From: Candidatus Poribacteria bacterium
GTDB taxonomy: Bacteria > Poribacteria > WGA-4E > GCA-2687025
Assembly: GCA_963665845.2 (NCBI GenBank)
Contig: OY762492.1
Location: 832,001 to 896,000 of the forward strand
Direction of reading: 5' to 3'
Length of the DNA: 64,000 bases
Under the pieces are notes generated by a model. The model saw only the letters and a program-made list of their open reading frames with translations, was not told the origin of the DNA and searched no databases. This document shows positions 22,866-60,472 of this stretch, one piece after another; within the stretch, counting starts at the first letter, position 1; every line of letters starts with the position of its first letter. The position numbers were made by a program, and so were the translations under genes.

Positions 22866-22955
22866 TTCCCCCCTTGAAAAGGGGGGCTAGGGGGGTTTAA
22901 AGGACGGGCGCGGCGGTTGCGATGCCTTAAGATTCCCGCTTACGCGGGAATGACG
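22866..22955. repeat. REP-like family B and family A elements
   Basis: CCCCCCTTGAAAAGGGGGGCTAGGGGG and GATTCCCGCTTACGCGGGAATGAC. Confidence 0.9.
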
Positions 22956-23000
22956 GCATGGATTGGCCGGCTGTCGCGCAAAAATGAATGTCATTGCTTG

Positions 23001-23492
23001 TTAGGTACTGCCCTTTTTCATTTGGCGCGGGAATCGTATTGCCGCGGCGATCTCTGTCGTGGAGCGCGTCTCAATATGCGGCGCGAGAACGACCTTGCCG
23101 CCCCCCTTCTCTACGGCTTCGCGCTCAACGATCTGCTCTATGGAGTAGTCGCCGCCTTTGACATGGATGTCAGGGCGGAGCGCCTGTATCATGGCGATGG
23201 GCGTATCCTCCTCAAAGACGACGGCGAACGCCACAGGCTTGAGCGCGCCAATCAGCTCGGCGCGTTCGTTGTCGGGAAGAAACGGGCGCGGCGCGCCTTT
23301 CAGCCGGCGCGTCGACTCGTCGCTGTTCACCCCGACAATGAGCATGTCCCCCAGCGACCGCGCATGGCGCAGATACCGAACATGCCCGACATGGAGAAGA
23401 TCGAAGCAGCCGTTCGTTGTGACGATCGTTTGTCCGTTTTGACGCGCCCTCCGCGCCTCTTCCGCCGCCTCTTCCAGGGTCAAGACGCTCAT
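23001..23492 (-). CDS. rfaE2: D-glycero-beta-D-manno-heptose-1-phosphate adenylyltransferase (RfaE domain II)
   Basis: TNGCFDLLHVGH, GVNSDES.RRLKG, PDIHVKGGDY, STT. Confidence 0.9.
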   Translation of the reverse strand: MSVLTLEEAAEEARRARQNGQTIVTTNGCFDLLHVGHVRYLRHARSLGDMLIVGVNSDESTRRLKGAPRPFLPDNERAELIGALKPVAFAVVFEEDTPIAMIQALRPDIHVKGGDYSIEQIVEREAVEKGGGKVVLAPHIETRSTTEIAAAIRFPRQMKKGST

Positions 23493-23787
23493 TCGCCGCT
23501 CTCCGTCTGGCGGCGCTGCCATCCCCAATCGATCCCGCCTTCGTAAAACCGCTCTGGGTTTTCAACCGCCCAGATCTGTTTTAAGAAGGTTCCCGACAAA
23601 CCGTCATTCCCGCGTAAGCGGGAATCTAGAGGCGGGGCAGAAACCGTCCGCCTTTGTCTGCCGCTATGCCTAAACTGAAACGTCAAGGTCTCGTTCACTC
23701 TTCTCTCTCCGCCTGTCGGCGCTGCCATCCCCAATCGATCCCGCCGTCGTAAAACCGCTCTGGATTTTCAACCGCCCATATCTGTTT
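23479..23787. repeat. Diverged direct duplication of the selenoprotein 3' end / rfaE2 start junction, with a family A REP between the copies
   Basis: KQIWAVENPERFY[ED]GGIDWGWQRRQ is encoded twice about 206 bp apart; REP at ~23603-23626. Confidence 0.9.
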
Positions 23788-24861
23788 ACGGATGATGTAG
23801 TTTTTCGGGTCCAGTTTGAGCGCCGCTTTCATCTGCTCGGCGGCTTCCTCTTTTCTGTTCAGTTGAAGGAGCAGCTTGGCGTATCGGAAACGGCGGGATG
23901 CGTCCTGCGCGTCCAGTTCCACGGCGCGTTCGTAGGCGTTCAAGGCGCGCTCCGCCTCTCCCTCCCGTTCATACAGCTCGGCGCGCAGCGTGTGAAACGC
24001 GGCGTCGTACGGCAAAGCCAGCGACAGCGCCTCAACCGCCTTGAGCGAGGTTTCATGCGCAGGGTCAGGCTTTTTAAGCGGCGCGCCGATCGGTTTTTTC
24101 GCCCACTCTTCCGCCTGTTGTTGAGACGCCTTCCCGACAAACCTGCCTTTTTCATCGATGAGCAGCGTGTTCGGAACCGCCCTTAGCCCAAACAGCTCTC
24201 CCAGCAGGTTGTTCGCGTCAATCAGGTTCACATATTCCGCGCCTGCTGCTTCGATATAGCGCCGCGCCGCTTCGGCTCCCTGTATGTCGATGGCGGCGGC
24301 GATGACGATGAAGTTGTTGTCGCGGCGCTTATCATATAACGCTTGCCAACCTGGCAAGTTGTCCCGGCACCCTCACCAGCTCGCCCAGGTGTAGAGCGCG
24401 ATCCGTTTGCCGATCAAGCTGGAGAGGCGGATCATCTCGCCGTCCAGGTCGGGCAGGGCGATGTCCGGCATCCGTTCGCCCGGTTGAATGGAGCGGGTCG
24501 GCGCCGCCCCCGGCAAGAGAGCCGGCGCCTCCGCGGTCTCGTCCCAACCGAAATGCGCGTTCAGCAGCTCCGGCAAACGGGACGCCGACGCATAGAGGCC
24601 GCGCTCGGTTTGGAGAACGCGCCGGTCGCTTCCGTCTAAAAATATGTTGACGCAGAACTGGTTGATGCAGATGTTGACGCTTCCGTCGGGGAGCGGCTCT
24701 AGTTTGGCGTTGAAGGCGTCCGCGGCGGGTTGAAGCGGAACATACGCCGCGGCGCCGAACCGCCGGATGTCCAGCTCTAGGGCGGTTCCGTTCGCGTGGA
24801 TGCGCAGTTCGTCTGCCTGCGCGCATGCGGCGAGGGCGATCAGGGCGGCGTATATCGTCAT
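23695..24861 (-). CDS. Selenocysteine-containing redoxin (ResA/TlpA-like, WASWUGC) with an N-terminal extra domain and C-terminal TPRs, ~388 aa
   Basis: ORFs 24373..24861 and 23695..24357 are in frame across a TGA at 24375-24373, reading LYTWASW*GCRDNLPGWQ at the thioredoxin-fold active-site position. Confidence 0.88.
24342..24358 (-). promoter_or_regulatory. Bacterial SECIS-like hairpin
   Basis: CTTGCCA-GGT-TGGCAAG; the apical G lies about 22 nt 3' of the UGA. Confidence 0.75.
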
Positions 24862-24905
24862 GCGTCTTACCTGCGCTTCGGTTTAAAATAGGAGGTTCTG
24901 CCGCG

Positions 24906-24934
24906 ATCTTAGCGCCGACCGCGCCGGGATGCAA
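24906..24934 (-). promoter_or_regulatory. Putative sigma70 promoter of the selenoprotein-rfaE2 unit
   Basis: TTGCAT-17bp-TAAGAT. Confidence 0.6.
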
Positions 24935-25094
24935 CCGCCTTCCCTCCGACCTTACCCTTAGAGTTAGGATAATTCTGGTTGTGAACGCGGACGGCGCCTG
25001 CGGCATCTAAGATTCCCGCTTGCGCGGGAATGACGGGCTGATTGGCGCGCCTTTTCCCATAAGACGGAATGACGGACCGGCAGGCGGATTGAGG

Positions 25095-57715: not shown

Positions 57716-58058
57716 GCGCTCGCCGTTCTGTTGGAGGCGAAAGCGTCCAGCCCGCCGACCCATGCGGTCATTCCCGCGTAAGCGGGAATCTTGAAGCCTC
57801 TATCGCCTCCAAATACGGTTTCCTGCAACGCGGTCGCTTTCGGGAACTGTCCAAGATTACGGCGATGCGCTCGCCGTTCTGTTGGAGGCGAAGGCGTCCA
57901 GTCCGCCGACCCAGGCTGTCATTCCCGCGTAAGCGGGAATCTTGAAGCGTCTATTGCCTCCAAAGACGGTTTCCTGCAACGCTGCCGCTTTCGGGAGCTG
58001 TCCAAGATTACGGCGATGCGCTCGCCGTTCTGTTGGAGGCGAAGGCGTCCAGTCCGCC
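57716..58058. repeat. 151-bp tandem repeat (about 2.3 copies) carrying family A REPs and overlapping the DsbD-like 3' end
   Basis: CGCCGTTCTGTTGGAGGCGAA at 57721, 57872 and 58023; REPs at ~57767 and 57918. Confidence 0.9.
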
Positions 58059-60404
58059 TTGAAGGAACGCCTTGAACTGCTCCGGGTCGCGCGTGAGTCC
58101 GTCGAAATGGTCAATCACCTCGTCGTCCGGCGAGATCAGGACGTAGAACGGCAGGGCGGTCGTCTGGAACCGCTCCTCCTGCATTTTGCGGTTGGCTCTG
58201 GACGCTTCGTCCCGTTTGTCTGTCCATATCTGCGCCCCGACATACTTATCCAGGAGCGCCGACACCTCTTTTTTGACAAAGATATTCTTTTCCATCCATC
58301 TGCAGTTGGTGCATGTGACGCCCGTGAAGTCGACAAAGACGGGGCGGTCGATCGCCTTCGCCTCGGCGAGCGCGTCTTCAAGCGATTCATGCCAGTTGTC
58401 ATGGACGGCGGTCGACGTTTGATCCTCTTTCATGGCGTAGTACGGCAGGAAGGCGTCCAGTTCGCCGAGCGGATTTCCCATGAGGCCTGTGAACAGATAA
58501 AGCGTCGCCGCAAAGAAGCTGATGGAGGAAATGAGCCGTATGGGACCGAGATGCTCAGGCGGAGCGTCCTGCGTCAGCTGTACCTTGCCGAGAAGATAGA
58601 TCGCGGCGACCAGCGCAATGGCGATCCAGATCGCCAGAAACAGCTCGCGGGGAAGCGCGCCCCATTCGAAGACAAGGTCGATATTGCTGATGAATTTGAG
58701 CGCCGCCGCCAGCTCCAGGAACCCCATCGTCGCCTTGACCGAGTTGAGCCAGCCGCCCGATTTTGGCAGAGAGGAGAGTATCTGCGGAAACAGCGCCAAA
58801 AAGAAGAACGGCGAGGAAAACGCCGCCGAGAAGCTGAGCATTCCGATCACCGCCCAAAAATACTCCCCCTGCGAAGCAGCGACCAGAACCGTCCCCACAA
58901 ACGGCACGGTGCATGTGAACGTGGTCAGCGAAAAGGTGAGACCCATCATGACGGTCGCCGCATGCCCGACCTTTTTATGCGAGCCGCCGAAAGCGTTGAG
59001 CAGCCAGTGCGGAACCGTGATTTCAAACGCGCCGAACAGGTTGAGCGCAAAGAAAATAAAGATTGCGGCGATGAGCAGGTTCACCCAGACGTTCGTCGCG
59101 AGGTTCTGAATCGAGGCGGCGCCGAAAAAGGCTGACAGAAGAACGCCAAGAGCCGTGAAGGTGACCATGATGCCGAGGCAGTAGATGGACGCCTGTCCGA
59201 CGCCTTGCCCGCGCGTCAAGCCCTCTTTTTTGGTGAAAAAGGAGACCGTAATCGGTATCATCGGAAAGACGCATGGCGTCAAGAGCGACAGGAATCCCAT
59301 CGACATGGCGAATCCGATGTATGCCAGGAGGCCTTCGGAACGCGCTTTGCCGAGCGCGCCCATGCTTCCGTCTTGCGCGGAACCCTGCGCCTGGGCGTAG
59401 ACGGATCTTGCGTCGCCCGTCTTGACGGTCAGCTCCATCTTTTGATCAATCGTTTTCGGCGTGAAACACTGCACGTCGTTGCAGGGCATGAAAACAAGGC
59501 GCGCCGTTAATTTTTGAACGCCAGGCTCCGTCTCTTTTGGGACCAACAGCGGCAGCGTGAAGACAGCCCGATCTTTGAAAGTGGCGATTTTCTTCTGATC
59601 GTCTTTTTTGGTCATCATGAGCGGCTCCGACTGCTCAACCGCCCCAGCCCGCTCTAGAGCGTCCATATCCTTGAGCGTGATATTGGTCGGCATCGGCCCG
59701 TCGTCAAGCGAGTAGATATACCACCCCTCCCGGATATCCGCTTCGATGCGCAGCAGCGCATACTCGCCGGCGCGCGCGGTTGACGGCTCAAATGAGGCGT
59801 TGATCTTCACAATGGGCGGCATCGGGCTTTCGGCGTACGCTTTGCGCGCCGCCCCCGCTTCGATGTTGAGGCTGGCTTTCGCTTGAGCGGTGTTGAGCGG
59901 AATGCATTGGAAGCTGTTGCATTTGGTGAAGCTGACGACAGCGGAGACGGTCTGCTCCCCAGGCTGCATGTTTTCAGGAACCCGCAGCGTCTGCGTGAAA
60001 ACCGCTTCGCCGCGGTAGATGCCGATCTGTTTCTCAAAGCCTTTGTCGTAGGCGACGATCGGAGTCGGAAAAAGGACAGAGTCGACCAGTTCAAACGCCC
60101 CTGGATGGATCTCTATTCGGGTCGGTTCGGGTTCAAACGCCTCTGAATCGATCTCTGTTTGGGTCGGTTCGGGCGGCGATTCTCCCTCCGAGTAGATGTA
60201 CCATCCGTCCTCGATCTCGGCTTTGACGCGCAGCTGGACATATTCGCCGGGCCGCGCGGGGGACGGTTTTATCTCTGCGGTGAGTCGGACGTTTTCATCT
60301 TCGCCGCCGCCGTCCAATCCGGGGATCGGAAGCTGCGCCGACGAATTTAAAACAAAGCAGACCGCCGCCGCGGCGATTGCGCCGATAAGCCGAATGTGCC
60401 GCAT
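58008..60404 (-). CDS. dsbD: DsbD-family thiol:disulfide interchange protein with two N-terminal domains
   Basis: Two GWYIYS..CN..QC domains, TPCVFPMIP, FTCTVPF, PKSGGWL, DFTGVTCTNC. Confidence 0.9.
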   Translation of the reverse strand: MRHIRLIGAIAAAAVCFVLNSSAQLPIPGLDGGGEDENVRLTAEIKPSPARPGEYVQLRVKAEIEDGWYIYSEGESPPEPTQTEIDSEAFEPEPTRIEIHPGAFELVDSVLFPTPIVAYDKGFEKQIGIYRGEAVFTQTLRVPENMQPGEQTVSAVVSFTKCNSFQCIPLNTAQAKASLNIEAGAARKAYAESPMPPIVKINASFEPSTARAGEYALLRIEADIREGWYIYSLDDGPMPTNITLKDMDALERAGAVEQSEPLMMTKKDDQKKIATFKDRAVFTLPLLVPKETEPGVQKLTARLVFMPCNDVQCFTPKTIDQKMELTVKTGDARSVYAQAQGSAQDGSMGALGKARSEGLLAYIGFAMSMGFLSLLTPCVFPMIPITVSFFTKKEGLTRGQGVGQASIYCLGIMVTFTALGVLLSAFFGAASIQNLATNVWVNLLIAAIFIFFALNLFGAFEITVPHWLLNAFGGSHKKVGHAATVMMGLTFSLTTFTCTVPFVGTVLVAASQGEYFWAVIGMLSFSAAFSSPFFFLALFPQILSSLPKSGGWLNSVKATMGFLELAAALKFISNIDLVFEWGALPRELFLAIWIAIALVAAIYLLGKVQLTQDAPPEHLGPIRLISSISFFAATLYLFTGLMGNPLGELDAFLPYYAMKEDQTSTAVHDNWHESLEDALAEAKAIDRPVFVDFTGVTCTNCRWMEKNIFVKKEVSALLDKYVGAQIWTDKRDEASRANRKMQEERFQTTALPFYVLISPDDEVIDHFDGLTRDPEQFKAFLQGGLDAFASNRTASASP

Positions 60405-60472
60405 ACCTCTATCCTCCTCCACTGCGTCGCTTAATATATTATAGCGCCTTTTGACGCGCGCCGTTTTCATCC

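What the first reader, a model, noticed from the sequence alone, without database searches (positions are those of the whole stretch)
23695..24861. Hidden selenoprotein: WASW-U-GC redoxin fused to TPRs, with a SECIS-like hairpin
Seen: two track ORFs are in one frame across a single TGA, reading LYTWASW*GCRDNLPGWQ, and a 7-bp hairpin CTTGCCA-GGT-TGGCAAG has its loop G about 22 nt downstream. Established: TlpA/ResA redoxins have WAxWCxxC at this position, and bacterial SECIS elements lie just 3' of the UGA with an apical G. Inference: Sec readthrough gives a ~388-aa protein with compressed U-G-C spacing, a possible signal/lipoprotein leader (ALAAC), an extra N-terminal domain and C-terminal TPRs. 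An exported selenoprotein would be unusual.
Basis: partly seen in the sequence, partly recalled or inferred. Interest (0 to 1): 0.75.

Follow-up and report, generated by a model that had tools for sequence, protein, structure and literature searches.

The report
Exported selenoprotein of a known family
Two short predicted genes here form one reading frame across a TGA codon that very likely encodes selenocysteine, giving a thioredoxin-like redox protein of a family catalogued in 2008; the only modest twist is that this branch is predicted to be exported from the cell.

Summary
Confirmed, but a known kind. Window 24861-23695 (minus strand) is one 388-codon frame with a single internal TGA at codon 163 (WASW-U-GC). 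The genome has tRNA-Sec, selA, selB and selD. All 30 ortholog loci read from the phylum keep the TGA, and 40 of 40 full-motif database homologs have Cys there. The hairpin meets the published bacterial SECIS model. It is no more stable than shuffles, but its stem is kept by paired synonymous changes (26 CTG/CAG, 4 TTG/CAA, none mixed). The protein belongs to the published 'UGC-containing Prx-like/TlpA' selenoprotein family. Its best NCBIfam match is NF041054 (WAxxUGC), at 161 bits against a cut-off of 300, so it lies in a sister clade. The N-terminal domain is shared with the long form of the family. The leader looks like an ordinary cleaved signal peptide, not a lipoprotein signal. Export is not unusual: periplasmic MccSep is published, and this genome has three more leader-bearing Sec redoxins. 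Most likely role: a periplasmic Sec-dependent disulfide reductase fed by DsbD (inferred, untested). This scan has noted the family before on other DNA.

The parts
23695..24861 (-). Whole gene: 388 codons plus TGA stop, one internal TGA read as Sec
   Evidence: model pLDDT 92.1, pTM 0.88
24814..24861 (-). Predicted signal peptide, residues 1-16 (hydrophobic 3-13, A-Q-A then D); short and without a basic n-region
   Evidence: hydrophobic leader in 30 of 30 orthologs against 0 of 36 full-length Cys homologs; no SignalP run
24496..24813 (-). [quoted passage not shown]
   Evidence: PF07833 hit in 17 of 40 aligned members but not in this protein itself; best structural match 1d6u_A residues 7-84, Z 5.8, rmsd 3.0, 66 aligned
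24085..24492 (-). TlpA/ResA/DsbE-type redoxin domain, residues 124-259, with invariant P230
   Evidence: PF00578 E 2e-13; 3gl3_A Z 18.8, rmsd 1.9, 134 aligned; ResA hits
24373..24375 (-). In-frame TGA, codon 163 (Sec), at the first-Cys position of WAxWCxxC; C165 follows at 24369-24367
   Evidence: alignment to 3kcm places a one-residue gap inside the motif
24342..24358 (-). SECIS upper hairpin: 7-bp stem, GGU loop starting 22 nt after UGA
   Evidence: bSECIS criteria from PMC13188914; covariation
23800..24045 (-). TPR-like helical region, residues 273-354
   Evidence: TPR_8 two stretches, E 1.6e-9; helices in the model
23698..23799 (-). Conserved C-terminal cap (KQIW...W.WQ) that marks this clade

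Best explanation
This is one gene across an in-frame TGA that is very likely read as selenocysteine, giving a predicted exported thioredoxin-fold protein that likely works as a periplasmic disulfide reductase of the TlpA/ResA type. Shown here: the single frame, the Sec machinery in the genome, conservation of the TGA and of the hairpin, Cys at this site in homologs, and family placement. Predicted: the fold; SelB with Sec-tRNA binds the GGU-loop hairpin 22 nt downstream and decodes the UGA; the 16-residue leader is cleaved by signal peptidase I. Inferred from TlpA/ResA chemistry (established knowledge, not tested here): the U163 selenolate attacks an oxidised client, C165 resolves it to a strained U-G-C selenenylsulfide, and the inner-membrane DsbD re-reduces it. 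The TPR region and its cap would select the client. The invariant C65/C70 pair of the N-terminal domain would be either a structural disulfide or a relay. The client is not identified.
For: tRNA-SeC; selA 563.8 bits against cut-off 267.9; selB 321.2 against 242.25; selD 349.5 against 125, itself with one TGA. The 96 best matches in 151 phylum genomes (95 genomes) all carry an in-frame TGA, and 30 of 30 loci read have it at this codon. Cys stands here in 40 of 40 motif-bearing database homologs; among motifs found in metagenome loci, 48 are TGA and 28 Cys. selA is found in 144 of 151 phylum genomes. SECIS stem: Leu/Gln codons are CTG/CAG 26 times and TTG/CAA 4 times, never mixed, against about 0.20 expected per gene from codon usage, while neighbouring third positions vary freely. 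Fold: DsbE/ResA, Z 18.5-18.8. Leader: hydrophobicity at least 2.2 in 30 of 30 orthologs and 0 of 36 full-length Cys homologs. DsbD with two DsbD_N stretches at window 58008-60470.
Against: No peptide or activity data. The hairpin is not unusually stable. The 30 orthologs are kin, mostly one family, and their start codons were picked by eye. The Sec-versus-Cys stem comparison is biased because Sec loci could only be found through the LPGWQ pattern. This protein's own leader is short and has no Lys/Arg. Neighbouring genes are not conserved across families, so nothing ties it to DsbD (34 kb away) or to a client. The direction of the reaction cannot be read from sequence, and the motif is U-x-C rather than C-x-x-C.
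Confidence: 0.6

Rival explanations
1. Same exported selenoprotein, but it works as a disulfide isomerase or oxidase for secreted proteins, the TPR region holding misfolded clients.
For: A CGC motif is the active site of MauE, which forms disulfides in bacteria (bioRxiv 10.64898/2026.03.05.709764, passages). CXC isomerase activity in an engineered thioredoxin is recalled, not from a call. The protein has a client-binding-type helical region.
Against: The closest folds are DsbE/ResA-type proteins, generally reductases (established knowledge). MauE is a membrane protein of another fold. Leaderless homologs are presumably cytoplasmic.
Confidence: 0.17
2. Same selenoprotein, but it is a peroxide- or sulfoxide-removing enzyme (peroxiredoxin/GPx-like).
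For: The best Pfam match is AhpC-TSA, with a weak GSHPx match. BCP/Prx folds score Z 16.6-17.0, within about 2 of the top. The family was first labelled 'Prx-like'.
Against: No Thr/Ser three residues before U163 (it is Ala), so the recalled PxxxTxxC motif is absent. The WAxW motif and the invariant Pro230 are of the TlpA type. The 2026 review relabels the family TlpA-like.
Confidence: 0.13
3. A true selenoprotein, but this genus's shortened leader anchors it as a lipoprotein at C13 or fails to export it.
For: LAAC matches a lipobox pattern; the leader is only 16 aa and has no basic residue.
Against: A lipobox pattern is found only in this genus and at C9 of one other locus among the 31 loci listed; relatives have canonical A-x-A leaders that end near where D17 starts the domain. 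The requirement for a basic n-region and a later Cys is recalled from PROSITE.
Confidence: 0.07
4. The TGA is a real stop (pseudogene or two separate proteins), an assembly error, or Trp under another code.
For: A TTG start exists at 24357, and databases hold the 220-aa downstream piece as a protein. One relative's copy (L136) is frameshifted further down.
Against: The break falls inside the active-site motif of one fold; the TGA is conserved across the phylum; homologs have Cys, not Trp; TGA ends 350 of 771 long open frames in this genome; contigs agree with the assembly.
Confidence: 0.03

Closest known systems
[quoted passage not shown]
   Same: PF00578 domain, W-U-G-C motif followed by LPGWQ, Sec/Cys pairs; the published GOS sequences show the same motif and helical C-terminus.
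   Different: The GOS supplement has 33 WUGC strings and no KQIW, so this clade's C-terminal cap is not among them. None of the passages read mentions a signal peptide.
NCBIfam NF041054 WAxxUGC_long, 'ResA-like WAxxUGC motif-containing protein'
   Same: Exact WAxxUGC motif; best NCBIfam match, E 4.6e-47, profile positions 50-324 of 354; same three-part layout.
   Different: 161 bits against a cut-off of 300. The five other KQIW-clade proteins tested score 152-166, while 12 proteins from the other clade score 252-535. A quick tree separates the 17 KQIW rows with support 100. This protein has a leader and one more TPR unit than most members.
TlpA / ResA / CcmG(DsbE) extracytoplasmic thiol-disulfide oxidoreductases
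   Same: Fold of residues 124-259 (Z 18.5-18.8, rmsd about 2 A), WAxW motif, conserved Pro loop, predicted export.
   Different: U-G-C in place of C-x-x-C; added N-terminal PF07833-like domain and C-terminal TPRs; far below the NCBIfam cut-offs for ResA, TlpA and StoA.
MccSep of Geobacter sulfurreducens (bioRxiv 10.1101/2025.11.18.688581)
   Same: A bacterial selenoprotein with a signal peptide; there, cleavage and periplasmic location were shown by experiment.
   Different: A multiheme cytochrome; cited only as precedent for export.

Membership tests
UGC-containing Prx-like/TlpA selenoproteins (PMC2398784; PMC13188914) | AhpC-TSA / TlpA thioredoxin-fold domain | tested here: met
   PF00578 50.7 bits against cut-off 26; structure search
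UGC-containing Prx-like/TlpA selenoproteins (PMC2398784; PMC13188914) | U-G-C motif at the redox site, with Cys-containing homologs | tested here: met
UGC-containing Prx-like/TlpA selenoproteins (PMC2398784; PMC13188914) | bSECIS: loop 3-9 nt, stem 4-16 bp, G in first two loop positions, 16-37 nt spacing, energy at most -7.5 kcal/mol | tested here: met
   loop 3, stem 7, GG, 21 nt between UGA and loop, -9.1 to -9.8 kcal/mol; bSECISearch itself not run
UGC-containing Prx-like/TlpA selenoproteins (PMC2398784; PMC13188914) | selA, selB, selC, selD in the genome | tested here: met
UGC-containing Prx-like/TlpA selenoproteins (PMC2398784; PMC13188914) | Selenium present in the made protein | not testable with these tools
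   needs MS or 75Se labelling; the family is listed as predicted only
NCBIfam NF041054 WAxxUGC_long | WAxxUGC motif | tested here: met
   WASW-U-GC
NCBIfam NF041054 WAxxUGC_long | Score at or above the curated cut-off of 300 bits | tested here: not met
   161 bits; clade members 152-166
TlpA/ResA/CcmG oxidoreductases | TlpA-type thioredoxin fold | tested here: met
   (predicted model)
TlpA/ResA/CcmG oxidoreductases | C-x-x-C active site | tested here: not met
   U-G-C; one-residue gap against 3kcm
TlpA/ResA/CcmG oxidoreductases | Extracytoplasmic location | tested here: inconclusive
   conserved hydrophobic leader; no SignalP run, no experiment
TlpA/ResA/CcmG oxidoreductases | Reduced by DsbD/CcdA; disulfide reductase activity | not testable with these tools
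   DsbD present, not adjacent
Bacterial lipoproteins (signal peptidase II) | Conserved lipobox Cys after a basic n-region | tested here: not met
   C13, no Lys/Arg in residues 1-8, not conserved outside the genus; rule recalled
Peroxiredoxins | PxxxT/SxxC peroxidatic motif (recalled) | tested here: not met
   residue three before U163 is Ala160
[quoted passage not shown] | Profile or fold match for residues 17-122 | tested here: inconclusive
   no hit in this protein; 17 of 40 aligned members hit at E up to 0.05, best 2.1e-8; top structural match Z 5.8, below the level the tool calls reliable; no Foldseek hit at E 0.001

The most novel reading that the evidence does not exclude
Poribacteria run a selenium-based periplasmic redox network. 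This protein is a two-centre enzyme in which the invariant C65/C70 pair of a cell-envelope-type N-terminal domain relays electrons between DsbD and a strained U-G-C selenenylsulfide. It works beside at least three other exported Sec redoxins, which would make it the first tractable model for what a UxC thioredoxin does outside the cytoplasm.
Probability: 0.2. Interest if true: 0.55.

Novelty: new variant of a known kind. Interest (0 to 1): 0.28.

Why it matters
Mainly an annotation fix: databases hold the downstream half as a 'tetratricopeptide repeat protein', although at least 95 of 151 sampled phylum genomes carry the TGA-containing gene. The family has been listed since 2008 but remains predicted only, so its chemistry is open. 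The leader-bearing, TPR-extended clade offers natural Sec and Cys versions with the same layout (this gene against L046 and L047) for testing what Sec adds to a U-x-C site. It also suggests that Poribacteria spend selenium on envelope redox control.

Tried and rejected
Rfam scan of the window: no match. Hairpin energy against shuffles: not significant. Loose genome-wide SECIS filter: 286 hits, mostly chance, so not used as support. Gene neighbourhood in the window and 10 fetched regions: no partner conserved across families; within family f4 the gene follows a conserved 612-670 aa ORF (3 of 3 f4 genomes of genera g6/g9 with that flank, plus L132), not scanned against a library. Foldseek on the N-terminal domain alone: nothing at E 0.001. 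The careful tree did not finish; the quick tree (SH-aLRT only, midpoint root, 84 rows, 15 of the 30 phylum loci used) is not used for direction of change. RNA run X19 has relative-strain contigs on the gene at depth under 5, which does not show transcription. Literature: 'WAxxUGC' 0 papers; 'UGC-containing' with 'selenoprotein' 3 papers; exported/periplasmic selenoprotein phrases, 1 irrelevant paper; Poribacteria with selenocysteine, 3 papers seen as listing only. These searches cover the open-access library only. An atlas look-up for the N-terminal domain gave no result, so distant look-alikes of that domain remain unexamined. No complex prediction with DsbD was run. Genomes without a selA hit but with the TGA gene (G072, G119, G142, G146, G149) are fragmented; selB was found in G072 and G149. 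Family f5 (2 genomes) showed no gene, selA or selB; with two genomes this is only suggestive.

Full report
Observation. The feature lies on the minus strand. Two ORFs, 24861..24373 (162 aa) and 24357..23695 (220 aa), share a frame. With TGA read as Sec they give 388 aa with one internal TGA at codon 163, in the context LYTWASW-U-GCRDNLPGWQ. The hairpin CTTGCCA-GGT-TGGCAAG is at 24358-24342, with the loop starting 22 nt after the TGA. Contigs from runs X1 and X3 match 23606-25035 with no difference; they may be the window's own source, so they exclude an assembly slip but are not independent.

Is TGA Sec here? The genome has tRNA-SeC and selA, selB and selD above their curated cut-offs; selD itself has an in-frame TGA. 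TGA ends 350 of 771 long open frames, so the genome does not read it as Trp. The closest titled relative is a Candidatus Poribacteria record, 89% identical. In 151 genomes of the phylum, the 96 best matches, from 95 genomes, all contain an in-frame TGA (528 weaker matches were not listed). In the 30 loci returned and read, the TGA is at this codon 30 times. selA was found in 144 of the 151. Of 45 database homologs, 40 carry the motif, all with W-C-G-C; 2 are the downstream half of this gene's close relatives and 3 are unrelated TPR proteins. In 79 metagenome loci my pattern found 48 TGA and 28 Cys motifs; 5 loci gave no match to the pattern and 2 gave two.

SECIS. The hairpin meets all four constraints of the bacterial model as given in PMC13188914 (passages). 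Against this, it is no more stable than shuffled sequence, and a loose filter finds 286 such sites in the genome, so shape alone proves little. The useful evidence is synonymous. The outer pair of the core stem joins the first base of the Leu codon to the third base of the Gln codon. In 30 orthologs these are CTG/CAG 26 times and TTG/CAA 4 times, never mixed. Codon usage in the same genes predicts a matched pair about 0.20 of the time, and third positions of neighbouring Gly, Arg and Pro codons take all four bases. The 5-bp core is perfect in 48 of 48 metagenome Sec genes and 8 of 28 Cys genes, or 8 of 14 among Cys genes that keep L-P-x-W-Q (counted by eye; Fisher p 5e-5). That comparison is biased, because Sec genes could only be found through the LPGWQ pattern, and kin are not independent. 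Three other Sec redoxin genes in this genome have a 3-nt loop at the same distance from the UGA.

Anatomy. AlphaFold2 gives a confident three-part model (pLDDT 92.1, pTM 0.88). Residues 124-259 match DsbE/ResA proteins (3gl3_A Z 18.8, rmsd 1.9, 134 aligned; 2f9s_A Z 18.5). Alignment to 3kcm puts U163 on the first Cys and C165 on the second, with one residue missing between them. Residues 273-354 are TPR-like, followed by a conserved KQIW cap. [quoted passage not shown] The domain is not an addition: leaderless Cys homologs have it, and C65 and C70 are invariant in 61 of 61 aligned domains (39 of these rows were pre-selected for having two Cys in that region).

Leader. The best 11-residue hydrophobicity in the first 35 residues is at least 2.2 in 30 of 30 phylum orthologs and in 0 of 36 full-length Cys homologs; 4 shorter proteins were left out, one scoring 2.21. 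Starts were chosen by eye. Several relatives show classical A-x-A ends. A lipobox pattern occurs only in this genus and at C9 in one other locus. I read the leader as a signal peptidase I type; this gene's version is short and uncharged, so export is less sure here than in relatives. Leader-like N-termini also occur outside the phylum set, in Sec (L074, L080, L115) and Cys (L046, L047, L116) homologs; L074 passes the NF041054 cut-off.

Mechanism. The most likely reading is a periplasmic TlpA-like reductase in which the U163 selenolate attacks a client disulfide, C165 resolves it, and DsbD re-reduces the enzyme. A DsbD with two N-domains lies at window 58008-60470. This rests on fold and general knowledge of the TlpA/ResA family. 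No client or partner is shown: the neighbours (TonB-dependent receptor upstream, cytidylyltransferase-like gene downstream) are shared only within the genus. Isomerase/oxidase and peroxidase roles remain open.

Comparison with what is known. PMC2398784 (passages and supplement search) lists 'Prx-like (UGC-containing)' with 46 Sec sequences. [quoted passage not shown] NCBIfam NF041054 carries the motif in its name; this protein scores 161 against a cut-off of 300, so it is not filed there. A quick tree puts it in a 17-row clade with support 100, apart from the rows that pass the cut-off. Downstream fragments with the same cap are named from SAR202, Chloroflexota and Thermomicrobiales, so the clade is not confined to Poribacteria. 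Export of a selenoprotein has experimental precedent in MccSep (bioRxiv 10.1101/2025.11.18.688581, passages). I found no paper describing a leader-bearing UGC clade, but the library lacks most subscription journals, and I could not see the representative accessions or bioRxiv supplements. Earlier notes of this scan report the same family in other genomes as shorter genes of about 237 codons; I had placed the family before reading them.

Verdict. A real, mis-annotated selenoprotein gene (about 0.97), probably exported (about 0.85), in a sister clade of a named NCBIfam family and within a family published in 2008. New variant of a known kind; interest 0.28.

Noticed in passing
window 23486-23581 and 23692-23787: The last 96 nt of the gene region are repeated 206 nt downstream (90% identical), with a palindromic repeat between the copies. 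The downstream copy reads like the end of the relative's gene and runs into the next gene's start. A contig of run X5 skips the 206 nt, so the duplication looks strain-specific.
   Followed up: partly
window 22928-22956, 23602-23630, 25008-25036: A REP-like palindrome flanks the gene; one exact pattern for it matches 572 times on contig C1, both strands counted.
   Followed up: partly
G000:C1 minus strand, TGA at 2983206, 2982679 and 549172: Three more probable selenoprotein genes: redoxin-like U-x-x-C (VFYRG.[WF]-U-P..C), two in tandem, all with hydrophobic leaders (two lipobox-like) and the same GCAGCTC-GTG-GAGCTGC hairpin. Not scanned against family libraries.
   Followed up: partly
window 58008-60470 minus: 820-aa DsbD with two DsbD_N stretches, the membrane domain and a C-terminal thioredoxin-like domain.
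   Followed up: partly
G000:C3:1436-3984: A second selA (in two pieces, different frames) and a partial selB on a 15.8-kb contig: a strain variant, duplicate or assembly fragment.
   Followed up: no
L130 (G035:C5 about 1756200-1761000): Two near-identical copies of the ortholog about 3.7 kb apart with a 396-aa ORF between them that looks transposase-related by eye.
   Followed up: no
L136 (G072:C1:3300-5492): The ortholog keeps the TGA and motif but is frameshifted about 60 codons later; selA was not found in this fragmented genome, selB was.
   Followed up: partly
L063 and L105: Each holds two Cys-type paralogs of the family close together.
   Followed up: no
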